Below are positions 5,686 through 50,028 of a DNA stretch of 50,028 bases, piece after piece. Position numbers and translations under genes: made by a program. The notes beneath the pieces are model-generated. The model ran no database searches and was not told the origin of the DNA. It saw only the letters and a list, made by a program, of their open reading frames with translations. Positions within the stretch are counted from its first letter, which is position 1. Each line of letters starts with the position of its first letter. Source of the stretch: an uncultured Verrucomicrobiota bacterium (GTDB lineage: Bacteria > Verrucomicrobiota > Kiritimatiellia > RFP12 > UBA1067); assembly GCA_946615875.1 (NCBI GenBank), contig CAMOIK010000001.1, positions 1 through 50,028 of the forward strand, read 5' to 3'.

Positions 5686-5763
5686 AGTTCCAACGACTTG
5701 CCAAACTCGTTGGAACGACCTGCCCGACTCGTTGGAACGACTTTGACGGGTCGTTGGAACGAC
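5686..5763. repeat. four copies of the near-palindromic 11-14-nt motif (C/G)TCGTTGGAACGAC: one inverted copy plus three direct copies at exactly 22-bp spacing
   Basis: The direct copies are at 5706-5719, 5728-5741 and 5750-5763. The inverted copy GTTCCAACGAC is at 5687-5697. The core is TCGTT-GG-AACGA, which has dyad symmetry. Confidence 0.85.
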
Positions 5764-5940
5764 CGGGTTGATGCCTGGGAAGGGGGGCGGGACGGGCCAA
5801 TGATGGGATAAACGGGCATTCCAGGGGCGAAAATCGCTGAAAACGGCGCAATGGCCGTCTGGACGGGCGCCAATGCGCGGGGCGTGGCGCGATGGATGCG
5901 TCGCGAGTCAATATGCGCGGATTATGGGGCACGAGGCGCG

Positions 5941-10990: not shown

Positions 10991-11010
10991 CTATTATACC
11001 ATATTTTCCG
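10991..11010 (-). promoter_or_regulatory. extended -10 promoter box CGGAAAATATGGTATAATAG (TATAAT at 10998-10993), folK
   Basis: This is an exact TATGGTATAAT copy on the minus strand. The folK ATG at 10986 is 6 nt after the hexamer. Confidence 0.7.
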
Positions 11011-11037: not shown

Positions 11038-11080
11038 GTGTTGAAATTGTTCAACGCACTTTCAACGCATTTTCAACGCA
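11038..11080. repeat. three direct TTCAACGCA repeats at 11-bp spacing, preceded by the inverted half-site GTGTTGAA
   Basis: The copies are at 11050-11058, 11061-11069 and 11072-11080, and the inverted GTGTTGAA is at 11038-11045. They lie between the divergent folK and yraN promoters, and the last copy overlaps the -35 position of the yraN promoter. Confidence 0.75.
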
Positions 11081-11092
11081 CGGCTTCCGTCC

Positions 11093-11108
11093 GATATGGG
11101 ATAATGTG
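11093..11108 (+). promoter_or_regulatory. variant promoter box GATATGGGATAATGTG (GATAAT at 11100-11105), yraN
   Basis: It has the same architecture as the main box (ATATGG-N-ATAAT) and lies 38 nt upstream of the yraN ATG. Confidence 0.45.
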
Positions 11109-15886: not shown

Positions 15887-16510
15887 CTACTGCATAGCCC
15901 ACATCACTATGCTCATCGCGAAGCCGACGAGCGCGCCTATCACCCCGCCCCACAGCGTCACGCCGCGGAGTTCGCGGTTCGCCACTTCGCGCGTGAGCAC
16001 CTCCAGCTTGCGTTCGTCGTAGCCCATTATCGTCTCATAGACGATGTTCCAGACGTCCGTTTCTTCTATCATTGCGGGCAGGTTCTCCGCCAGGTAGGCG
16101 GTCATCTGCCCGGCGGCGGCCCGCGCCACGGTCGCGCGCAGGTCGTCGTCGAACAGCCCCGCGACTTCGGCCAGCGCCTTCGCTTCGTCCTTGACCAGGC
16201 CCGGCAGGACGCGGTCGAGGCGCTCGCTGACGCGCGAGATGGCGGTGCAGACCTTGCCGCCGCACTCGTCTATCTTCTGGCGGATGTTTCGCTCGATGAC
16301 CGCCCTCACGTCTGGGGCGCAGACCTTCGCCGCAATCTTTTCGGACGTCATCAGCTCAGTGCGGATGAGGTTCTTCGTGTTTGCGGCGATGAGTTCCTTC
16401 TTCTTGGTGAAGAGGGTGTTGAACACCCATCGGATCGCGAGCTCGTTGGTGCCCGCGCCGATGGCGAAGCCAACCGCCCCCTGGACGGCCATCTGCGCGA
16501 GAAGCGTCAT
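15887..16510 (-). CDS. DUF445-family membrane protein
   Basis: It has the N-terminal GAGTNELAIRWVF signature and a C-terminal hydrophobic helix WGGVIGALVGFAMSIVMW. ATG at 16510 overlaps the vapC stop (ATGA). Confidence 0.7.
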   Translation of the reverse strand: MTLLAQMAVQGAVGFAIGAGTNELAIRWVFNTLFTKKKELIAANTKNLIRTELMTSEKIAAKVCAPDVRAVIERNIRQKIDECGGKVCTAISRVSERLDRVLPGLVKDEAKALAEVAGLFDDDLRATVARAAAGQMTAYLAENLPAMIEETDVWNIVYETIMGYDERKLEVLTREVANRELRGVTLWGGVIGALVGFAMSIVMWAMQ

Positions 16511-16953
16511 TTCGCGGGCTTCTCCTCCTGCTCCGCCTCGGCGTCCGCCTCGGCTATGCCGAGCGCCTTTGCGGCCTGCACGAGGCCGGCGTCGTCGCTG
16601 GCAAGGGCGCACTTGACGCCGTGGACGGCCTCCAGCTCCTGGATGGTGGCCAAGTGGATGGCCTGCAGGGTGCCGACCGTCACCTGGCTCGCTTCGGAGG
16701 CGCGCTTCAGCACGGCGTCGGTCACGGGGACCTGCGTGACGGCGTTGCACACCGTCTCGATCCACGTGCCGAGGCGGGCGCGTCCGGCGTCGTCGATCAT
16801 TCCTTCGAGTCGCAGGCGGTTCGCGGCGCGGCAGCACTCCACCCGCATCAGCGTGGAGGCGTAGGCCTTTTCCCATTTGCCCCAGAATTCAGCGGGACGC
16901 CCTACGCCCAGCAAGCGCCGGATCACGAACGAGGAATCGAGATAGACTATCAT
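16507..16953 (-). CDS. vapC: PIN-domain protein (VapC-like toxin) with an acidic C-terminal tail
   Basis: It has the PIN start MIVYLDSS and the C-terminal LASDD. The usual D in the D-A-x-H-L-A motif reads Q (TLQAIHLA). It overlaps the upstream antitoxin gene by 4 nt. Confidence 0.75.
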   Translation of the reverse strand: MIVYLDSSFVIRRLLGVGRPAEFWGKWEKAYASTLMRVECCRAANRLRLEGMIDDAGRARLGTWIETVCNAVTQVPVTDAVLKRASEASQVTVGTLQAIHLATIQELEAVHGVKCALASDDAGLVQAAKALGIAEADAEAEQEEKPAK

Positions 16954-17201
16954 CGCGCACTCCTTTCTTTCGCAATCTCGGCGAGAGGGTCGTGTTTGAA
17001 GCCGAAGCCGCCGATGTCCGCCACTGCGGACGCCGGAACGGTCGGTTCGCGAAGAGGAAGACGGCTGTCTCCGTCTTCGCCTAGCAGCCGCGCAACGATG
17101 CGCTTATGGCTTGTGATCAGCACGTTTCGTCCTTGGCTGGCCAGTCCAAGGTAGTGGCTGAGCTGCTGTTTAAGCGTGGCCGTGTTTACTGTTATGGTCA
17201 T
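16950..17201 (-). CDS. Phd/YefM-type antitoxin
   Basis: MTITVNTATLKQQLSHYLGLASQGRNVLITSHKRIVARLLG matches the prevent-host-death antitoxin N-terminal pattern. It is 83 aa and lies directly upstream of the PIN gene. Confidence 0.7.
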   Translation of the reverse strand: MTITVNTATLKQQLSHYLGLASQGRNVLITSHKRIVARLLGEDGDSRLPLREPTVPASAVADIGGFGFKHDPLAEIAKERSAR

Positions 17202-17228: not shown

Positions 17229-17353
17229 ACATGGTGTCAATGGCGGGGAATGTGCATTTCCCTCCATGTTTGGCCTAATATGTCCTATTGACGTCCATAT
17301 GTGGATATGCTTTCCCGTCGGTCCTCGCCCGTCGATCGGTCGGTCTGGCCGCG

Positions 17354-18424
17354 CTATTCGGGCGGCGTCCAGTTCTGCATGGCGGAGTGAAGTTCTTCGA
17401 CGCGAGAGAGGTATTTGGCGGCTTCGCCCTGCGCCACCGCGTCCTTCGATTCCTGGAGGCGCGCTACTCTGTCCATCGTGCTCTTGTAGAACGCGGCGGC
17501 CTTTTTCGCCTCAACGGGCTTCTTGACCGGCTTGGCTGCTTCGCGCTCGCAGGAGGCGACGATCTTGATCATCTTCTGGCGGTCCGGATACTTCTTCAGG
17601 CGGTTGTTGAGCGAGGCCAGCTTCCTGTCGGATTTCAAGTCCGGCCACATCTTCAGCAATTCCTCTATGTCCCACATGGCCTGTCCCGGCGAAGAGTTGG
17701 AGTCGGAGATAAGCTCGGTCAGCCGCATGTCGCGTTTCTGGACGATTGCCGCCGAGAGGTGGCGGGCCTCCTCCGCCACGGCGGGATCTTTGTCTGCGGA
17801 CATCTTGCGCAGCCAGTTCAGGCCGGGTTTCATGGAATGGCCTTGGCTGAAGTGGTTCGTCACGTCGCCGGCGAGTTTGTCCACCTTGGCGATGCCGAAG
17901 ATCGGATGTTCGCGAGGCAGTTTGCGCACTGCCGCGAACGCGGCGGACGACGCCTTGGAGAAGTCGGTGCCGCTGTGCAGGACCTTGCCGTTCGTGCCGA
18001 CGACGTAGAAGAAGGGGAGTGATTTCGCGGCCGGCTCGCCTTCGGCCAGGCCGGCGTCGTTGTAGATCGGGATGCTCTTCTCCAGCGGTATTTCAAGATC
18101 CTTCATGGTTTCGGCGAACTTCGCCGCGTTCATGCGGTGTCCGCGCAGCGAGGCGATCGCTTTCAGACGGTAGAATTTGCTGTTTCTCGCCGTGCTCATG
18201 GCCTTGACCACCTTGTCGAGCGGCAGTTTCTTTATGGAGTCCTCGTTGAACGCCGCCACGATGACGACGGTGTCGATCAAGTCTTCCGGCTCGATAATCG
18301 CGCCGTTCACGCGGTTCTTCTCGCCGAGGCCGCGCCAGATTTCCTTGCCGTCATGTCCTGCCGCGCTGCCGCACATGGCCGTGAACCCGGCAAGCGCCGC
18401 CAACATCCACTGTTTCGCTTTCAT
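17354..18424 (-). CDS. secreted hypothetical protein: N-terminal thioredoxin-fold-like region without CxxC, then a Lys-rich helical C-terminal half
   Basis: The signal peptide is MKAKQWMLAALAGFTAMCGSAAG. The ORF is 356 aa and is directly preceded by a promoter box. No family is assigned with confidence. Confidence 0.65.
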   Translation of the reverse strand: MKAKQWMLAALAGFTAMCGSAAGHDGKEIWRGLGEKNRVNGAIIEPEDLIDTVVIVAAFNEDSIKKLPLDKVVKAMSTARNSKFYRLKAIASLRGHRMNAAKFAETMKDLEIPLEKSIPIYNDAGLAEGEPAAKSLPFFYVVGTNGKVLHSGTDFSKASSAAFAAVRKLPREHPIFGIAKVDKLAGDVTNHFSQGHSMKPGLNWLRKMSADKDPAVAEEARHLSAAIVQKRDMRLTELISDSNSSPGQAMWDIEELLKMWPDLKSDRKLASLNNRLKKYPDRQKMIKIVASCEREAAKPVKKPVEAKKAAAFYKSTMDRVARLQESKDAVAQGEAAKYLSRVEELHSAMQNWTPPE

Positions 18425-18427
18425 GGC

Positions 18428-18450
18428 CGATAGTATAGCATATTTTCGCC
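18428..18450 (-). promoter_or_regulatory. variant promoter box GGCGAAAATATGCTATACTATCG (TATACT at 18437-18432)
   Basis: It has the same flanks as the main box, with TGC in place of TGG. The ATG at 18424 is 7 nt after the hexamer. Confidence 0.6.
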
Positions 18451-18540
18451 GCTTCGTCTATGGCAAAACGACACGCGCGACAGGCGCGGCAGATGGCGTC
18501 GATAGCGGCTGGGCGGTGCATGCCATAGGCCGCCGCTTGT

Positions 18541-18699
18541 TCCATATATAGACTGCCTCTTCTCCATATATGGACTGCCCCCTGCTCTATATATAGACTA
18601 CCCTCTTCTCTATATATAGACTGCCGCCTTCTCCATATATAGACGGCCGCTTCTCCATATATGGACTGCCGCCCGCTCCATATATGGCGTCGCCGAGTC
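18541..18699 (+). repeat. iteron-like tandem array, 7 units of 22-23 bp, unit TC(C/T)ATATAT(A/G)GAC(T/G)GCC-N5-6
   Basis: Units start at 18541, 18563, 18586, 18609, 18632, 18654 and 18677; the last unit is degenerate. Units 3 and 4 contain the AT-only palindromic core TCTATATATAGA. The array lies in the divergent intergenic region between two promoter boxes. Confidence 0.9.
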
Positions 18700-18816
18700 C
18701 CCAAGGGCGGCGGTTGGGCGGTGATGCAAGCCAATGGGAGCGACGAAGGCGCAAGCCCCATGATGCGCTTGCGCGGCAACCCGGATGCGAACACGCACGG
18801 CGCGCGGCTCGCGCCC

Positions 18817-18848
18817 TTGACCCGCTGCGCGGAATTATGGTATAATAG
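18817..18848 (+). promoter_or_regulatory. promoter: -35 TTGACC (18817-18822), 18-bp spacer, extended -10 TTATGGTATAATAG (TATAAT at 18841-18846)
   Basis: It is the only box in the window with a clear -35. It lies 27 nt upstream of the ATG at 18873, which has the SD AAAGGAAAG. Confidence 0.7.
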
Positions 18849-27694: not shown

Positions 27695-28738
27695 CTACTC
27701 GACCTTGACGCCCATCATGCGGATGATGCGATCCAGGTCGTCATTGTCGTAGAAGTCTATCTCCACCATTCCCTTGACGTGTCTGCCGTTGGCGTGCGTC
27801 ACGCCGCTGCGCACGCGCACGGCGCAGCCGAGAAAACGGCGCATCGCGTCCTGGAGATTGCGGACGTACGACGACGTGAGATCCGGAACGCCTCGCGGCG
27901 CATCCGGCACGGGGGACTTGAAGCGATCGACCTTGCGCTGGAGAGCCAGGACGGTCAGCTGGTCGTTCACGCAGTCGCGCGCGAAGAGAGTGCGGGTCTT
28001 CTCGTCGTCGAGCGAAAGGAGTATTTTTGCATGGCCGACGGAGATGAGTTTCGCCTCCAGCATCGACTTCACTTCGTCGGGAAGTTCGAGCAGGCGCATG
28101 GCGTTGGCGACGGTGGCGCGAGCCTTGCCCACTTTCTCCGCCACGTCCTGCTGCGTGAGGCCAAACGAGTCCTGCAGGGTCTTGTAGCTGATAGCCTCTT
28201 CGATGGGGTTCAGGTCTTCGCGCTGCAGATTCTCCGTGGTGGTCATCGCGGCGGCGGTCAGATCGTCCGCCTCGATCAGAGTGACGGGTATCTTGCGCCA
28301 GCCAGCGAGAAGGGCGGCGCGCAGACGGCGTTCGCCGGCGATGAGCTCGTATTTGCCATTGGAGTTCTTTCTGACGGTCGGCGGTTGCACGAGACCGCTG
28401 TTCTTCAGCGACTCGGCCAACTCCCGCAGTTCCTCTTCCTTGAAGTCGCGGCGTGGCTGGTATGGGCTGCGCTCGATGTCGAGGATGGGTAGTTCCGTCG
28501 GACCGGTCCGCTGCTCCTCGGACGAAGTCGACGGCTGCTTGCTGTCTGCGGTGGCGGGCTTGGCCACCACTGTCTTCGGGCCTTGGTTGAACTTGGGCGG
28601 CGCGGGCATCGTCGGCACCGCCGAGCCGGTCAGCAGCGAATTGAGGTCGCGGCCCAGGCCGTGCCTCTTCTTCGACGGCGCATCGTCGGCTTTGGCAGCC
28701 GTCGTGGCCTTCTTAAGGAATGGGCTTTTCGCGGCCAT
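27695..28738 (-). CDS. parB: ParB/Spo0J chromosome partitioning protein with a ~90-aa low-complexity N-terminal extension
   Basis: The ParB box is YELIAGERRLRAA and the HTH is LTQQDVAEKVGKARATVANAMRLLELP. No parA lies adjacent. Confidence 0.9.
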   Translation of the reverse strand: MAAKSPFLKKATTAAKADDAPSKKRHGLGRDLNSLLTGSAVPTMPAPPKFNQGPKTVVAKPATADSKQPSTSSEEQRTGPTELPILDIERSPYQPRRDFKEEELRELAESLKNSGLVQPPTVRKNSNGKYELIAGERRLRAALLAGWRKIPVTLIEADDLTAAAMTTTENLQREDLNPIEEAISYKTLQDSFGLTQQDVAEKVGKARATVANAMRLLELPDEVKSMLEAKLISVGHAKILLSLDDEKTRTLFARDCVNDQLTVLALQRKVDRFKSPVPDAPRGVPDLTSSYVRNLQDAMRRFLGCAVRVRSGVTHANGRHVKGMVEIDFYDNDDLDRIIRMMGVKVE

Positions 28739-37044: not shown

Positions 37045-38017
37045 CGCATCCACGCCGGACGGGCGCGCCGCCGAACGCTCGTTCATGCTGCGCGCGGCGG
37101 AGCTGGCCCTTCGCGGCATGGGGCACGTCCGCCCCAACCCGTGCGTCGGCGCGGTGGTCGTGCGCGACGGCGAGGTGGTCGGCGAAGGCTGGCACAAGAG
37201 GGCTGGCGGAGACCATGCGGAGGTGGCCGCGCTCAAGAAGGCGGGCGCCGCCGCGCGCGGCGCCACGGTGTATGTGACGCTCGAGCCGTGTTCGCGCGCC
37301 GGCCGCGTGGGCGCCTGCACCGACGCGCTTGCCGCCGCCGGAGTGGCGAGGGTGGTCTATGGCGTGGCGGACCCGAATCCCAAGAACCGAGGAAAGGCCA
37401 GGCGGGCGCTGGCGAAGGCCGGCGTCGTCTGCGAGCGGTACCGTGGCGACGATGAGGTCTTGGCGGCGTGCCGCGAGCTGATCGCCGCCTTCAGCAAGCA
37501 CGTCGCCACCGGCCTGCCTTTCGTCACGGTCAAGCTCGCTATGTCGCTCGACGGCAGGCTTTGCGACGACTGGGGAGGCTCCAGATGGATTTCGTCGGCG
37601 AGGGCGCGCCGCTTTACCGCCTCCACGCTGCGCGAACGCAGCGACGCCATAATGGTGGGCGGCGAGACGGTGCGGCGCGACAACCCTTCCCTGCTTTCGC
37701 ACGGGAAGAGGAACGACGACCTCGTGCGCGTCGTCGTTTCGCGGTCCGGGAACCTGCCTAAGGACGCGAGGATATTCACGGACGGTGCGCCGAACGCGAC
37801 GCTTGTGTTCGACGATGCGCGCAAGGCACTGGAGGAGCTTGGGCGCATGGGCGTGACGAGCGTCCTTTGCGAAGGCGGCATGAAGCTCGCCGTCTCGCTC
37901 GCCGAAGCCGGTCTGGTGGATAGGTGGATCGCCGTGCTCGCGCCGAAGGTGATCGGCGGCCGGCGCATTTCGGAGGCTGTAAAGATCGGGGAGGTCTCGT
38001 GTTTACAGGATTGGTAG
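37037..38017 (+). CDS. ribD: bifunctional diaminohydroxyphosphoribosylaminopyrimidine deaminase / 5-amino-6-(5-phosphoribosylamino)uracil reductase
   Basis: The deaminase zinc motifs are HAEVAAL and EPCSRAGRVGAC, and the reductase half is VTVKLAMSLDGR. ATG at 37037 overlaps the nusB end by 8 nt. Confidence 0.9.
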   Translation: MFDASTPDGRAAERSFMLRAAELALRGMGHVRPNPCVGAVVVRDGEVVGEGWHKRAGGDHAEVAALKKAGAAARGATVYVTLEPCSRAGRVGACTDALAAAGVARVVYGVADPNPKNRGKARRALAKAGVVCERYRGDDEVLAACRELIAAFSKHVATGLPFVTVKLAMSLDGRLCDDWGGSRWISSARARRFTASTLRERSDAIMVGGETVRRDNPSLLSHGKRNDDLVRVVVSRSGNLPKDARIFTDGAPNATLVFDDARKALEELGRMGVTSVLCEGGMKLAVSLAEAGLVDRWIAVLAPKVIGGRRISEAVKIGEVSCLQDW

Positions 38018-38643
38018 AACGCAAGGGCCGGGTTCGCAGGGTCTCGCGGGGAAGCGGCCTCGTGCTGGAGATCGGTTTCGAGCCCTGGCCGCAGATGCTG
38101 GAAGAGGGCGAGTCCGTCGCCGTCAATGGCGCGTGCCTGACCGTGGCGCGACGCGACGCGACGCGCTTCACCGCCGACATCCTGCGGGAGACCGAGGAGC
38201 GCACGGGACTTGCCGACCTCAAGCCCGGCGACCAGGTGAACCTTGAACGCGCCCTCCGCGCCGGTTCGCCGATGGGCGGGCACGTGGTGCAGGGGCACGT
38301 GGACCGGCGAGGCGCCATACTCGCCATTTCGCCGCGAGGCCGCGATTTCCGCTTGAAGGTGCGGTGCGGCCGCGTCATGGCCGCGCAGTCCGTCGTGAAG
38401 GGCTCGGTCGCCATCGACGGCGTTTCGCTCACGATCACAGGGCTTGGCGACGATTGGCTGACGGTCGATCTGATCCCCACCACCATGCGAGACACTACGC
38501 TCGGGCTGAAGCGCGTCGGCGACATGGTGAACCTCGAAGGCGACGTCCTCGGCAAATATGTCGCTGCCGCCGCGTCCGCCGCGCCGCAATCGGCCGCAAA
38601 GGGGCTTTCCATGGAAGATCTGGTGCGGGCCGGCTTCGTATAA
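37999..38643 (+). CDS. ribE: riboflavin synthase
   Basis: The GTG start at 37999 follows GGGGAGG and yields the canonical N-terminus (M)FTGLVE. The lumazine-binding repeats are GESVAVNGACLTV and GSVAIDGVSLTI. Confidence 0.85.
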   Translation: MFTGLVERKGRVRRVSRGSGLVLEIGFEPWPQMLEEGESVAVNGACLTVARRDATRFTADILRETEERTGLADLKPGDQVNLERALRAGSPMGGHVVQGHVDRRGAILAISPRGRDFRLKVRCGRVMAAQSVVKGSVAIDGVSLTITGLGDDWLTVDLIPTTMRDTTLGLKRVGDMVNLEGDVLGKYVAAAASAAPQSAAKGLSMEDLVRAGFV

Positions 38644-38674
38644 CTCCATCCATCCCTTCCCTTGGGGACGGAAA

Positions 38675-38827
38675 GTCCATATATAGAGAACGGCAAGTCC
38701 ATATATAGAGATGCCGCGAGTCTATATATGGAGAAGTGGCAAGTCTATATATCAAGTCTATATATAATATAGAGACGGGGCAAGTCTATATATAGAGACG
38801 CGCGAGTGAATATATAGGGATGCGCGG
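38675..38827 (-). repeat. second iteron-like tandem array, 7 units, the same family as 18541-18699 but in inverted orientation
   Basis: Units start at 38675, 38697, 38720, 38743 (truncated to 13 bp), 38756 (28 bp), 38784 and 38806 (degenerate). The unit is GTC(C/T)ATATAT(A/G)GAGA-N7-8. GGCAAGTCTATATATGGAGA matches the reverse complement of array-1 units (GGCAGTCTATATATGGAGA). Confidence 0.9.
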
Positions 38828-38902: not shown

Positions 38903-38924
38903 GGAAAATATGGTATAATATGCG
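38903..38924 (+). promoter_or_regulatory. extended -10 promoter box GGAAAATATGGTATAATATGCG (TATAAT at 38914-38919)
   Basis: This is an exact copy of the box, 27 nt upstream of the ATG at 38946. Confidence 0.7.
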
Positions 38925-38945
38925 GCGACCAAGGATCAAGGACAC

Positions 38946-40448
38946 ATGAAGATCACGCCAGAACTGCTGTGTGCCGCGGCGACGTTCGCCGCGGCTGGAT
39001 GCTCAATGCTGCCGTCTGTCGGCCCGGACTACCGCGAGCCTGAGAGGAAACTGCCAGACTTCGCGCTGCCTGACGCGGGATACCCGACGACCAACCTCCT
39101 GGAGTCGGGCGAATACAAAATCGCGGAAGACGGCGACGACTGGAGAGTGAACATCACCACCAACGAGATACGGTCGTGGTGGACTCGCTTCAACGATCCC
39201 GTGCTTACCGGCCTGGTCGATTCGTCGGTCTCCAACAACCTCTCCTATCTTATGGCGCAGGAACGCCTGGTCCAGGCGCGCTGGTCGCTCGTCGGCTCGT
39301 ATGCGGCGTTCCTGCCGCACGTCGGGGCGTCGGGCTCCGCCACGCGGATGGAGCGCGGCAAAGACACGTCCGCCAGGTGGGGGACGGGAAGCAAGCTGCA
39401 CCGCGACGTGTTCACCGGCGGCTTCGACGCCACGTGGGAGATAGACATCTTCGGAGGCAGCCGCCGCGCCACCGAGGCGGCGACGGCCGAATTCGAGGCG
39501 GCCGGCTGGAACCTGGCCGACGCCTGGGTGTCGCTCACTTCCGAGGTGGGCAGCCAGTATATCGCGCTGCGCACCACGCAGCAGCGCATCGAGGTCGCGC
39601 GCGACAACCTGGTGCTGCAGCGCGAAACCTACGACATCCTCAAGTCCCGCCTGGACTCCGGCATCGGCGACGAGCTGGCCGTGAGCCAGTCCAAGTACAT
39701 CCTGGAGCAGACCCACGCGGCGATACCGCCGCTGCTCGCCCAGGAGGAGCAGTTGAAGAACGCGCTCGCGATCCTGACCGGCCTGATGCCCGGCGCGCTC
39801 GAAGAGGAGCTTTCCGAGTGCCCCGACCGCGACTGGCTGGTGGAGCCGCAGAAGCTTTCCGGCATCCCGCTCGACATGATACGCGCGCGCCCCGACGTGA
39901 GGGCGGCGGAGCGGCGGCTGGCGGCGCAGGTCGCCCGCGTAGGGGTGGCGCAGGCGCGCTGGTATCCAAAGCTCTTCATCAACGGCTCGCTCGGCCTCGA
40001 CTCCGTGCATCCCCAGAAACTCTTCCATCGCGACGCGCTCATGGGCTCCATAGGCCCGTCGTTCAGCTGGCCGATATTCCAAGGCGGCGGCATATACGCC
40101 GCCGTCCAGGCCGAGGAGGCCAAGGTCAATGAGGCTTGCCTCGCATACGACCTCGCCATCCAGAAGGCGTATGCCGAGATACGCGACGCCTACGCCGCCT
40201 ACACCCACGAATACCACCGCTACCAGGCGCTCCAGGCGGCCGTCAAGGCGGCAGAGGACGCGGTCTCCATCGCCAAGGACCTCTACAAGAACGGACTCAA
40301 GGACTTCACGGCCGTCATCGACGCCCAGCGCTCCCTGCTGACGCTGGCGGAGTCGCTCGTCGTGAGCCGCGGCAGCATCTCGCGCCACCTCATCGCGCTC
40401 TACAAGGCGCTCGGCGGCGGCGTGGTGGTGGAGGCCGAAGAGGGCTAG
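38946..40448 (+). CDS. efflux transporter outer-membrane factor lipoprotein, NodT/OprM family
   Basis: It has the lipobox AAAGCS, the N-terminal PDYREPE motif after the Cys, and two TolC-like repeats. It is 500 aa. Confidence 0.85.
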   Translation: MKITPELLCAAATFAAAGCSMLPSVGPDYREPERKLPDFALPDAGYPTTNLLESGEYKIAEDGDDWRVNITTNEIRSWWTRFNDPVLTGLVDSSVSNNLSYLMAQERLVQARWSLVGSYAAFLPHVGASGSATRMERGKDTSARWGTGSKLHRDVFTGGFDATWEIDIFGGSRRATEAATAEFEAAGWNLADAWVSLTSEVGSQYIALRTTQQRIEVARDNLVLQRETYDILKSRLDSGIGDELAVSQSKYILEQTHAAIPPLLAQEEQLKNALAILTGLMPGALEEELSECPDRDWLVEPQKLSGIPLDMIRARPDVRAAERRLAAQVARVGVAQARWYPKLFINGSLGLDSVHPQKLFHRDALMGSIGPSFSWPIFQGGGIYAAVQAEEAKVNEACLAYDLAIQKAYAEIRDAYAAYTHEYHRYQALQAAVKAAEDAVSIAKDLYKNGLKDFTAVIDAQRSLLTLAESLVVSRGSISRHLIALYKALGGGVVVEAEEG

Positions 40449-49866: not shown

Positions 49867-50028
49867 ATGCGCCGCACCCGCATGGATAAAGGCAGAAGTG
49901 CGTTTCGGGATGTGGTTTTCGGCGTTTCGCGTCCGAAACGGCTATCCGTCGTCGGTGTCGAAGAGTTCTGCGAAGCCCGGCAGGAGCTGGATCGCCGGGA
50001 CCTCTGGAGCTTTGGTGCTGGTCTAAAA
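49867..50028 (+). CDS. possible 5' end of an unidentified gene running off the window
   Basis: The frame is open from the stop at 49855-49857 to the window end. Candidate starts are GTG 49861, ATG 49867 and ATG 49882. The translation MRRTRMDKGRSAFRDVVFGVSRPKRLSVVGVEEFCEARQELDRRDLWSFGAGLK matches no recognised family. Confidence 0.25.
   Translation, partial: MRRTRMDKGRSAFRDVVFGVSRPKRLSVVGVEEFCEARQELDRRDLWSFGAGLK

What the first reader, a model, noticed from the sequence alone, without database searches (positions are those of the whole stretch)
38675..38827. A second seven-unit array of the same repeat family, inverted, 20 kb from the first
The units start at 38675, 38697, 38720, 38743 (truncated), 38756 (expanded by an internal TATATA duplication), 38784 and 38806 (degenerate). 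Read on the plus strand the unit is GTC(C/T)ATATAT(A/G)GAGA. GGCAAGTCTATATATGGAGA matches the reverse complement of the array-1 units, so the two arrays are inverted relative to each other. This array lies just after ribE and about 90 bp upstream of the promoter box of the orphan outer-membrane-factor gene. Array 1 lies about 140 bp upstream of its plus-strand promoter. Two arrays with the same copy number and period in one 50-kb window argue for a dedicated function rather than slippage noise. They share a binding protein, or they co-regulate envelope genes (an LPS-core operon and an OM channel). Alternatively they form an inverted pair capable of looping or of recombination-mediated inversion of the 20-kb segment between them.
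Basis: partly seen in the sequence, partly recalled or inferred. Interest (0 to 1): 0.7.

Follow-up and report, generated by a model that had tools for sequence, protein, structure and literature searches.

The report
Dispersed palindrome-core tandem repeat, Kiritimatiellia
The seven-unit array between ribE and the outer-membrane-factor gene is real, but it is one copy of a repeat family scattered through intergenic DNA of a few uncultured gut Kiritimatiellia, not half of a purpose-built two-array switch.

Summary
Observation confirmed. Window 38675-38820 holds seven 22-23-bp units around the 12-bp palindrome TCYATATATRGA. They belong to the same family as the array at 18541-18690 and lie in the opposite orientation. 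There are 11 core hits in the two arrays against 0.02 expected for the whole window.

Interpretation only partly supported. The same unit (TTC-TCCATATATGGA-CT plus about 6 free bases) forms 13 further arrays of 3-9 units in one related Kiritimatiellia MAG. There each array sits inside a conserved composite element: a left module, a variable array and a right module, bracketed by a 13-nt inverted repeat.

Those arrays lie next to unrelated housekeeping genes (gyrB, prs, pdxS, exbB, rnf, wza). They often sit at contig ends and are not at orthologous positions. Relatives with 79-87% identical OMF, and one with 95% identical GyrB, lack them.

Array 2 is unchanged in three assemblies. Its only 2 SNPs fall in spacers.

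The longest exact inverted match between the two arrays is 17 bp, and only one arrangement is seen.

Best reading: a lineage-restricted BOX/MITE-like interspersed repeat. Its palindromic core is probably kept because a dimeric protein binds it; this step is inferred, not shown. Envelope co-regulation and a 20-kb inversion are not supported. Modest interest.

The parts
38675..38820 (-). Array 2: seven units of the 22-23-bp repeat. Read on the minus strand the unit is TTC-TCYATATATRGA-CT plus about 6 nt of spacer. Plus-strand unit starts are 38675, 38697, 38720, 38743 (truncated), 38756 (TATATA duplication), 38784 and 38806 (degenerate).
   Evidence: identical unit structure in three assemblies
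38659..38669 (-). Terminal motif GTCCCCAAGGG (minus strand) just beyond the 'GACT' end of array 2. The same 11-mer lies at the equivalent end of array 1.
   Evidence: read directly
18541..18690 (+). Array 1: seven units of the same family in the opposite orientation, with spacings 22, 23, 23, 23, 22, 23.
   Evidence: its proximal end is confirmed in an independent Logan assembly that breaks inside the array (L036)
18697..18707 (+). Terminal motif GTCCCCAAGGG at the 'GACT' end of array 1.
17294..17306 (-). Solitary unit-like site TCCACATATGGAC (one mismatch to the core). It lies about 75 nt upstream of the -10 of a Phd/YefM-like antitoxin gene (16950-17201, minus strand).
   Evidence: it could be a relic unit or chance (0.02 expected per window)
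38904..38926 (+). Generic promoter GAAAATATGGTATAATATGCGGC of the OMF gene (-10 at 38914-38919). It is not part of the repeat.
   Evidence: the same motif precedes at least 10 other genes in the window
18430..18443 (-). Generic-type promoter ATATGCTATACTAT of the 356-aa secreted orphan gene (17354-18424). Its -10 (18432-18437) is 104 bp from the first core of array 1. The transcript is probably leaderless.
18817..18846 (+). Promoter (TTGACC-18-TATAAT) of the PglD-like/WaaA operon, 151 bp beyond array 1.
37999..38643 (+). ribE (riboflavin synthase), the last gene of nusB-ribD-ribE. Array 2 starts 32 bp after its stop, and no intrinsic terminator is predicted in between.
38946..40448 (+). Orphan outer-membrane-factor (OEP/TolC-like) gene downstream of array 2.

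Best explanation
Array 2 is one copy of a lineage-restricted family of non-coding interspersed repeats found in intergenic DNA of a small clade of uncultured gut Kiritimatiellia.

The repeating module is 22-23 bp. It has a conserved 17-nt block, TTC-TCYATATATRGA-CT, built around a 12-bp palindrome, followed by about 6 unconstrained G+C-rich bases.

Whole arrays, together with flanking modules in the related MAG, have been copied to many intergenic sites. They later gain or lose whole units and decay. Array 2 shows a truncated unit, an internally duplicated unit and a degenerate unit.

The two arrays in the window are independent, old copies that happen to lie in opposite orientation. They are not a functional pair.

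Shown here: the family is dispersed, modular, not positionally conserved, non-coding and associated with no particular gene class.

Inferred: the palindromic core is kept because a dimeric DNA-binding protein recognises it half-site by half-site. Successive sites lie about two helical turns apart. That protein could be a host nucleoid or regulatory protein, or the enzyme that mobilises the element. Any effect on the neighbouring promoters, such as an occupied barrier upstream of them, would then be generic rather than gene-specific.
For: - A scan of 185,579 species representatives found the two-unit pattern in one genome only, at 13 loci. That genome is a MAG titled 'Faecalibacterium sp. CAG:74', but it is Kiritimatiellia by its homologues. 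Eight of the arrays abut contig ends, as expected for a multi-copy repeat.
- In that MAG the arrays have 3-9 units. The same spacers recur in the same order across loci, with internal deletions. Conserved left (about 85-95 nt) and right (about 35 nt) modules flank the arrays. A 13-nt inverted repeat, GCGCGGCGAACCC/GGGTTCGCCGCGC, brackets the array.
- The 14-nt core is nearly invariant in 69 units (31 distinct sequences), while the spacer positions carry 0.4-1.6 bits. The window units keep the same core but have different spacers. The MAG flanks have no homologue in the window (nhmmer).
- Core positions 3 and 10 assort independently in the window units: C-G 3, T-A 3, C-A 3, T-G 2. This fits half-site recognition rather than a hairpin or cruciform requirement.
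- All 15 arrays are intergenic. Their neighbours are functionally unrelated.
- Positions are not orthologous.
- Array 2 is identical in unit structure in three assemblies whose flanks differ by 0.4%. Both SNPs inside the array fall in spacers.
- Assemblies of the same species from other samples break at or near array 1.
- No Rfam family matches. There is no plasmid, phage or viral match, and no paper contains the core string in a relevant context.
Against: - Multi-copy status is shown only in the related MAG. For the window's own species, only two arrays and one possible solo unit are seen in about 60 kb.
- No target-site duplication, empty/filled site pair or mobilising enzyme was found. No recurrent gene lies near the arrays.
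- The inverted repeat is not at the extreme ends of the MAG element, it is missing from short variants, and the window arrays lack it.
- No binding protein is identified.
- Where both sides are resolved, arrays always have at least one gene start next to them, and no convergent 3'-3' case was seen. In the window both arrays lie 93-104 bp upstream of a -10 that reads away from the same array end. A regulatory role is therefore not excluded.
- Four of the 13 MAG loci map near orthologues of genes of this window. That hints at regional clustering, which a purely selfish dispersed element does not predict, although local hopping could produce it.
Confidence: 0.55

Rival explanations
1. The arrays are cis-regulatory platforms. 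A global regulator or nucleoid-associated protein (Lrp-like or xenogeneic-silencer-like) binds each A+T-rich palindrome, polymerises or wraps over 3-9 sites, and modulates the adjacent promoters. The arrays have been spread to many promoters, so the neighbouring genes form a loose regulon.
For: - The core is conserved and the spacers are free.
- The roughly two-turn spacing resembles multi-site operators.
- Every resolved array has a gene 5' end on at least one side.
- In the window both arrays sit 93-104 bp upstream of a generic -10 that reads away from the same (TTC) end.
- An unrelated 42%-GC organism has two TCCATATATGGA sites 21 bp apart in a MarR/dioxygenase divergent region, so such palindromes can serve as operators.
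Against: - Array-to-promoter distance is not fixed, ranging from 76 to 297 bp.
- Orientation relative to the downstream gene is not fixed.
- The neighbours are unrelated housekeeping genes.
- Arrays are absent at orthologous promoters of close relatives.
- In the MAG, non-core flanks travel with the arrays.
- No regulator gene lies next to either array.
Confidence: 0.2
2. The arrays are neutral by-products of a lineage-wide tendency to generate tandem repeats in intergenic DNA by slippage or unequal exchange. They have no binding partner and no function.
For: - Relatives are full of other intergenic tandem arrays. L027 has 7-9-bp arrays in nearly every intergenic region, including (TTGAGAGGT)n at the place orthologous to array 2.
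- Other arrays with a period of about 22 bp and different cores occur in the window (5690-5765), at the scaffold end, in L039 and in L045.
- Array 2 carries decayed units.
Against: - Slippage in place cannot explain the same core in two species that share only 75-81% nucleotide identity (about 79-80% at the protein level) in conserved genes.
- It cannot explain 13 loci sharing the order of their spacers.
- It cannot explain near-invariance of the core beside free spacers.
Confidence: 0.1
3. The arrays are centromere-like or chromosome-organising sites clustered in one chromosomal neighbourhood (around parB, gyrB, guaA, uvrB and purL). An unknown protein distinct from ParB binds them.
For: - The two window arrays lie about 10 kb on either side of an orphan parB (27695-28738).
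- No canonical parS occurs in the window or in any fetched locus.
- MAG loci L004, L011 and L012 carry orthologues of window genes. gyrB (L009) lies about 5 kb from the PglD/WaaA operon in a relative. That makes 4 of 13 loci in one neighbourhood, against roughly 0.25-0.5 expected if arrays were random in a 1.5-3 Mb genome.
- Two arrays share one 30.8-kb MAG contig in opposite orientation.
Against: - The ParB is canonical. It has the GERR and ENLQREDL boxes, and its recognition helix GKARATVANAMRLLELP is almost that of Thermus and Caulobacter ParB, which bind TGTTNCACGTGAAACA (the specificity positions are recalled from Jalal et al. 2020). It should therefore not read TCCATATATGGA.
- There is no adjacent parA.
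- The MAG's size and completeness are unknown, so the enrichment is rough. Local hopping of a mobile repeat would give the same pattern.
- Positions are not conserved.
Confidence: 0.08
4. The two inverted arrays act as a pair. They either loop out the 20-kb segment or invert it by recombination.
For: The arrays are in inverted orientation with similar unit number.
Against: - The longest exact inverted match is 17 bp. This is below the roughly 20-30 bp usually needed for efficient RecA-dependent exchange (own knowledge, Shen & Huang 1986).
- All assemblies that span a junction show the window arrangement: ribE-array-OMF in three assemblies, and the 356-aa gene next to array 1 in L036.
- No recombinase gene is present in the 70-kb contig.
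- The family has many more than two members.
Confidence: 0.03

Closest known systems
BOX elements of Streptococcus pneumoniae (boxA-boxB(n)-boxC) and similar modular interspersed repeats such as neisserial NIMEs (own knowledge)
   Same: Both are non-coding, intergenic and multi-copy. Conserved end modules flank a variable number (here 3-9) of a short tandem internal module, and the copies are colinear apart from unit deletions.
   Different: There is no sequence relationship (no Rfam hit). The internal unit here is 23 bp with a perfect 12-14-bp palindrome, not a 45-nt boxB. No stable extended RNA fold is predicted beyond trivial pairing between units. The phylum is different.
MITEs (miniature inverted-repeat transposable elements)
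   Same: The MAG elements are about 190-335 bp, non-coding, dispersed and nearly identical to one another. A 13-nt inverted repeat brackets them, and occupancy differs between related genomes.
   Different: The inverted repeat is not terminal and is absent from some copies and from the window arrays. No target-site duplication and no partner transposase were found. MITEs do not normally consist of a tandem array.
REP/BIME clusters of enterobacteria and pseudomonads
   Same: Both are intergenic clusters of short palindromic units known to be bound by host proteins (IHF, gyrase; own knowledge).
   Different: REPs are 20-40-nt imperfect stem-loops arranged in alternating orientation and linked to RAYT transposases. 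Here the units are direct repeats with a loop-less 12-bp palindrome. Positions 3 and 10 show no pairing covariation, and no RAYT gene was seen.
Plasmid iteron and centromere arrays (R6K gamma-ori seven 22-bp iterons; F sopC 12 x 43 bp with a palindromic core) (own knowledge)
   Same: Both have a period of about two helical turns, 5-12 units and, in sopC, a palindromic core that binds a dimer.
   Different: The locus is chromosomal and there are many arrays per genome. No rep or par gene is adjacent, and nothing similar is found in 72,556 plasmids or 50,697 phages.

Membership tests
MITE | Many near-identical short non-coding copies dispersed in one genome | tested here: met
   There are 13 loci in MAG CAVAHB01 with conserved flanks and a shared order of spacers. 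For the window's own species only 2 arrays and 1 possible solo unit are seen in about 60 kb.
MITE | Terminal inverted repeats | tested here: inconclusive
   A 13-nt inverted repeat brackets the array in L001 and L005, and a 16-nt one does so in L011. Conserved sequence extends about 45 nt beyond it on the left. The short variants (L004, L008, L010) lack the left arm, and the window arrays have none.
MITE | Target-site duplication and filled/empty site pairs | not testable with these tools
   Many MAG copies sit at contig ends, so the far junction is missing there. The only cross-species comparison (guaA downstream, L004 against the window) lacks the far junction.
MITE | Cognate autonomous element or transposase with matching ends | tested here: not met
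   No recurrent or transposase-like gene occurs among 104 predicted genes around the arrays (all-against-all BLASTP). The whole genome could not be searched.
BOX-like modular interspersed repeat | Conserved 5' and 3' modules flanking a variable number of tandem internal units | tested here: met
   In the MAG, a left module of about 85-95 nt, 3-9 units of 23 bp and a right module of about 35 nt. In the window only an 11-nt terminal motif, GTCCCCAAGGG, is shared by the two arrays.
BOX-like modular interspersed repeat | Sequence or structure homology to described BOX, RUP or other curated repeat RNAs | tested here: not met
   No Rfam family reached its gathering score in the window or in four MAG loci.
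REP/BIME | Imperfect palindromic stem-loop units in alternating orientation | tested here: not met
   All units in an array have the same orientation. The palindrome has no loop, and core positions 3 and 10 show no pairing covariation.
Plasmid/phage iterons or partition centromere | A single array next to its rep or par gene on a mobile replicon | tested here: not met
   The context is housekeeping chromosomal genes. There are many arrays per genome, and there are no plasmid, phage or viral matches.
Chromosomal parS | 16-bp palindrome TGTTNCACGTGAAACA bound by ParB | tested here: not met
   The core sequence is different. No canonical parS occurs in the window with up to 3 mismatches. The resident ParB has a canonical recognition helix.
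CRISPR array | Repeats of 23-50 bp separated by unique spacers of similar length, with a leader and usually cas genes | tested here: not met
   The spacers are 6-9 nt and recur in the same order at different loci. No cas genes appear in the gene lists.
Phase-variable (contingency) promoter repeat | Repeat inside the core promoter or ORF, with copy number varying between strains | tested here: not met
   The arrays lie at least 89 bp from the -10. Array 2 has the same seven units in three assemblies. The sample is small.

The most novel reading that the evidence does not exclude
The arrays may be high-capacity binding platforms for an as yet unidentified dimeric DNA-binding protein. On this reading they are concentrated in one chromosomal neighbourhood (around the orphan parB, gyrB, guaA, uvrB and purL). 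They would form a chromosome-organising or centromere-like system of Kiritimatiellia that is distinct from ParB-parS and has been spread by a mobile composite element.
Probability: 0.1. Interest if true: 0.75.

Novelty: new member of a known kind. Interest (0 to 1): 0.33.

Why it matters
It adds an undescribed interspersed-repeat family from a poorly studied, uncultured phylum. The practical consequence is that these arrays break short-read assemblies of gut Kiritimatiellia. They could also serve as strain or species markers.

The sharp contrast between an invariant palindromic core and free spacers predicts a specific binding protein, which could be fished out with the array as bait. If that protein proved to be a host nucleoid or domain-organising factor, the family would become more interesting. 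As things stand, it does not reveal a new regulatory or recombination device for the OMF gene or the LPS-core operon.

Tried and rejected
- Rfam at gathering threshold on the window and four MAG loci: no match.
- BLASTN (distant mode) of array 1 against plasmids and phages: no match.
- Viral-contig pattern scan: 0 hits.
- Metagenome (JGI) pattern scan: only unrelated hits. These were a two-site MarR-type operator region in a 42%-GC organism and a eukaryote-like satellite.
- Full-text search for the core strings: only eukaryotic promoter papers. Kiritimatiellia + intergenic + repeat: nothing relevant.
- RNA and DNA folding of array 2: z-scores of -3 to -4, which only reflect pairing between repeated palindromes. 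The centroid is largely unpaired, so there is no defined structure.
- The idea that the array carries or is tied to a special promoter is rejected. GAAAATATGGTATAATATGCG is the generic promoter of this genome. In the MAG the promoters lie outside the element at variable distance.
- No promoter or terminator is predicted inside the arrays.
- The parS hypothesis for the resident ParB is rejected on the canonical recognition helix.
- The window is not the origin: no DnaA-box cluster.
- Homology of the MAG flank modules to the window (nhmmer): none.
- Search for a recurrent neighbouring gene or transposase: none.
- The homologue search for the 356-aa neighbour of array 1 gave only one distant relative (49% identity), in a different context and without an array. 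The orthologous locus of array 1 therefore could not be compared.

Full report
**1. What is there**

The window is about 66% G+C. Between the stop of ribE (38643) and the promoter of an orphan OEP/TolC-type gene (ATG at 38946) lies a 146-bp A+T-punctuated tandem array.

TRF reports it as period 23, 6.6 copies (38673-38817). It also reports the sister array as period 23, 6.4 copies (18541-18685).

The heart of each unit is the 12-bp palindrome TCYATATATRGA. Allowing one mismatch, it occurs 12 times in 50 kb against 0.02 expected. Eleven of the 12 hits are in the two arrays. The twelfth is a solitary TCCACATATGGAC at 17294-17306.

Because the core is palindromic, orientation rests on the asymmetric flanks. 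The conserved block is TTC-TCYATATATRGA-CT followed by about 6 G+C-rich bases. By that criterion the arrays are inverted.

**2. Organism and context**

The window is part of a 70.9-kb human-associated metagenome scaffold (ENA ERZ28612953, scaffold_429). Homologues of its OMF and of GyrB are annotated as Kiritimatiellia.

All genes around both arrays are ordinary chromosomal genes:
- nusB-ribD-ribE, then array 2, then OMF-coaD-uvrB-nadE-purL.
- A 356-aa secreted orphan gene, then array 1, then a PglD-like/WaaA operon.

The 'promoter boxes' near the arrays are this genome's generic promoter, cgcGAAAATATGGTATAATATGCGgc. It has no -35 element and occurs before at least 10 other genes of the window. 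It therefore does not link the arrays.

**3. The family is dispersed, modular and mobile on an evolutionary scale**

A pattern for two adjacent units was scanned against one genome from each of 185,579 species. It hit a single genome, at 13 loci on 12 contigs. That genome is MAG CAVAHB01, titled Faecalibacterium sp. CAG:74. Its genes are 75-81% identical in nucleotides (about 79-80% in protein for guaA, uvrB and purL) to window genes, and its GyrB clusters with Kiritimatiellia. Eight of the 13 arrays touch contig ends, as expected for repeats that break assemblies.

In that MAG the arrays have 3-9 units. The spacers recur in the same order at different loci, with whole-unit deletions: cgggtgttc, aaggtgttg, tgggggtag, cggcgttc, cgagggtac, atccgttc, cgggggttg. 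Each array lies between a conserved left module and a conserved right module:
- Left: ...CTATAGTACTAAGGAGTACGGGAAAGCCGCCGTCTGCCCCCCTCAGGGAGCGCGGCGAAACCCCTCAGGGAGCGTTGGGATTC
- Right: CGGCGGTCGGACAGGAAGGGTTCGCCGCGCCGA

. A 13-nt inverted repeat, GCGCGGCGAACCC/GGGTTCGCCGCGC, brackets the array. The arrays were therefore copied as whole composite elements, not generated in place at each locus.

The MAG flank modules have no detectable homologue in the window. The two window arrays share only the unit and an 11-nt terminal motif, GTCCCCAAGGG, and their spacers are not colinear. They look like older, diverging copies.

**4. Positions are not conserved**

- Upstream of the OMF gene, the 87%-identity relative has a different tandem array, (TTGAGAGGT)n. 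Contigs from three samples break at it.
- The 85% and 79% relatives have no array at that position.
- The MAG array downstream of guaA has no counterpart in the window, where the corresponding intergenic gap is 27 bp.
- The MAG array upstream of gyrB is absent in a genome whose GyrB is 95% identical, and no core occurs in 17 kb of that genome.

Within the species, array 2 is stable. Three assemblies whose flanks differ by 0.4% have the same seven units, including the defective ones. Their two SNPs inside the array are both in spacers. Array 1 is confirmed in an independent Logan assembly that ends inside it. Two other assemblies end 56 bp before it.

**5. What the neighbours say**

All 15 arrays are intergenic. 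Where both sides are resolved the setting is divergent or co-directional, never convergent. Genes next to the MAG arrays encode:
- a Wza-like exporter
- PRPP synthetase
- a PfkB kinase
- an acyl-CoA synthetase
- GyrB
- an Rnf/Nqr subunit
- ExbB
- PdxS

. There is no envelope theme. The distance from an array to the nearest generic promoter ranges from 76 to 297 bp. No regulator, recombinase or transposase gene recurs near the arrays.

**6. Constraint on the core**

In 69 MAG units (31 distinct sequences) the 14-nt core TCCATATATGGACT is almost invariant, while the nine inter-core positions vary. The window keeps the core, with C/T and G/A tolerated at positions 3 and 10, but uses different spacers.

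Positions 3 and 10 assort independently: C-G 3, T-A 3, C-A 3, T-G 2. There is therefore no sign of selection for intrastrand pairing. This fits recognition of two half-sites by a dimeric protein better than a cruciform or hairpin requirement.

The mean period is about 22.7 bp, which places successive sites roughly two helical turns apart. Binding itself is inferred, not shown.

**7. The pair hypotheses**

The longest exact inverted match between the arrays is 17 bp. This is short for RecA-dependent exchange (own knowledge). Every assembly that spans a junction shows the window arrangement. No recombinase gene is present in the 70-kb scaffold. With many arrays per genome in the relative, there is no reason to treat these two as a dedicated pair.

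**8. A lead that was followed: parB**

An orphan parB lies midway between the arrays, at 27695-28738. There is no parA beside it and no canonical parS in the window.

Three MAG array loci carry orthologues of window genes. A fourth, at gyrB, maps to the same neighbourhood in a relative. This is more than the roughly 0.25-0.5 loci expected if arrays were random.

However, the ParB has the canonical GERR and ENLQREDL boxes. Its recognition helix is nearly identical to those of Thermus and Caulobacter ParB. It should therefore bind the canonical parS rather than these palindromes. Regional clustering remains an unexplained hint. It is compatible with local hopping of a mobile repeat or with a chromosome-organising role for another protein.

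**9. Comparison with known kinds**

Functionally and architecturally the closest analogues are modular interspersed repeats such as pneumococcal BOX elements, together with MITEs. REP/BIME clusters and plasmid iteron or sopC-type arrays share single features only. The family is a member of none of them by sequence. Several defining features of MITEs could not be met or tested: terminal inverted repeats, a target-site duplication and a partner transposase.

**10. Verdict**

The finding is a real, non-random feature, correctly described. Its best explanation is a new, narrowly distributed interspersed-repeat family with a probably protein-bound palindromic core. It is not a two-array regulatory or inversion device.

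Novelty: new member of a known kind. Interest: about 0.33. The residual novel reading, a chromosome-organising binding platform, has a probability of about 0.1.

Noticed in passing
window 5948, 10993(-), 11633, 18838, 26766(-), 36427(-), 36540, 38911, 44094: The genome has a very long, strongly conserved generic promoter motif, cgcGAAAATATGGTATAATATGCGgc, with no recognisable -35. In several cases the ATG lies only 6-8 nt after the -10 (5964, 18424, and near 10993 and 26766), which suggests that leaderless mRNAs are frequent.
   Followed up: partly
window 11050-11081: Three 11-bp direct repeats, TTCAACGCACT, lie immediately upstream of a weakened promoter (TGGGATAAT at 11097), between two divergent promoters. 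This is the geometry of an OmpR/PhoB-type response-regulator site.
   Followed up: no
window 5690-5765; L038 715-726: A second array with a 22-bp period and a different palindromic core: TCGTTGGAACGA three times, plus an inverted partial copy. It lies between a gene end and the hisD promoter. One solitary copy occurs about 14 kb upstream on the same scaffold.
   Followed up: partly
window 50005-50028, continuing in L014 21060-21125 (scaffold end): The scaffold ends in yet another tandem repeat of about 22 bp, TTTGGTGCTGGTCTAAAA(N)GAT. In the MAG the syntenic place downstream of purL carries a repeat module containing GTGGTGCTGG next to a TCCATATATGGA array (L011). A third array may therefore lie just beyond the scaffold end.
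   Followed up: partly
L027 1-55, 1648-1698, 2505-2563, 5617-5672, 7073-7105, 10716-10747: A relative with 87% identical OMF has a different 7-9-bp tandem array in almost every intergenic region: TTGAGAGGT, ATTGTGAA, AATCTCAC, GGAATGA, TCTCTGCG, AACTGCT. One of them sits at the place orthologous to array 2, where contigs from three samples break.
   Followed up: partly
L039 14170-14340; L045 17248-17310: Other Kiritimatiellia carry arrays with a 22-23-bp period and unrelated palindromic cores: GCGACTCCAGTCGC about six times, and AAACACTAGGGTGTTT 2.7 times. The architecture of a palindrome every two helical turns recurs in the class with different sequences.
   Followed up: no
window 27695-28738 (-): A canonical chromosomal ParB (ParB_N plus HTH_ParB) has no adjacent parA. 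No canonical parS (up to 3 mismatches) occurs anywhere in the 50-kb window, and none (up to 2 mismatches) in about 310 kb of related loci.
   Followed up: partly
window 17294-17306; 16950-17201 (-); 16507-16953 (-): A solitary unit-like palindrome, TCCACATATGGAC, lies about 75 nt upstream of the -10 of a small gene with a sub-threshold Phd/YefM antitoxin match (E = 4e-5). That gene is followed by a 148-aa ORF with no Pfam hit, so this may be a toxin-antitoxin pair. A similar sequence, GTCCACAATATGG, overlaps that promoter.
   Followed up: partly
L001-L013 (CAVAHB01): The GenBank title of this MAG is 'Faecalibacterium sp. CAG:74'. Its genes (GyrB, UvrB, PurL, GuaA) are closest to Kiritimatiellia, so the name looks like a mislabel.
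   Followed up: partly
L002, L010, L011, L012, right of the arrays: A second conserved repeat module of about 110 nt directly abuts the right end of four of the MAG elements: CAGAAAGGCAACTTTTTTTGAACTGGAGGGGAACTCGTGTACTACTCTATACTGTGGTGCTGGCC...CGCAGAGCCGCAGAG. Related CGCAGAG-rich sequence occurs in the OMF upstream region of L032.
   Followed up: no
MAG loci L004, L009, L011, L012 against window 25-48 kb: Four of the 13 array loci of the MAG lie beside orthologues of genes from this one window or its neighbourhood (guaA/ECF sigma/TPR, gyrB near PglD-WaaA, purL, uvrB). This suggests regional clustering or local hopping of the element.
   Followed up: partly
window 18505-18518 and 18710-18723: A 14-nt direct repeat, GCGGCTGGGCGGTG / GCGGTTGGGCGGTG, flanks array 1 about 20 nt outside each end. 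It could be chance in G+C-rich DNA or a trace of the insertion event.
   Followed up: no
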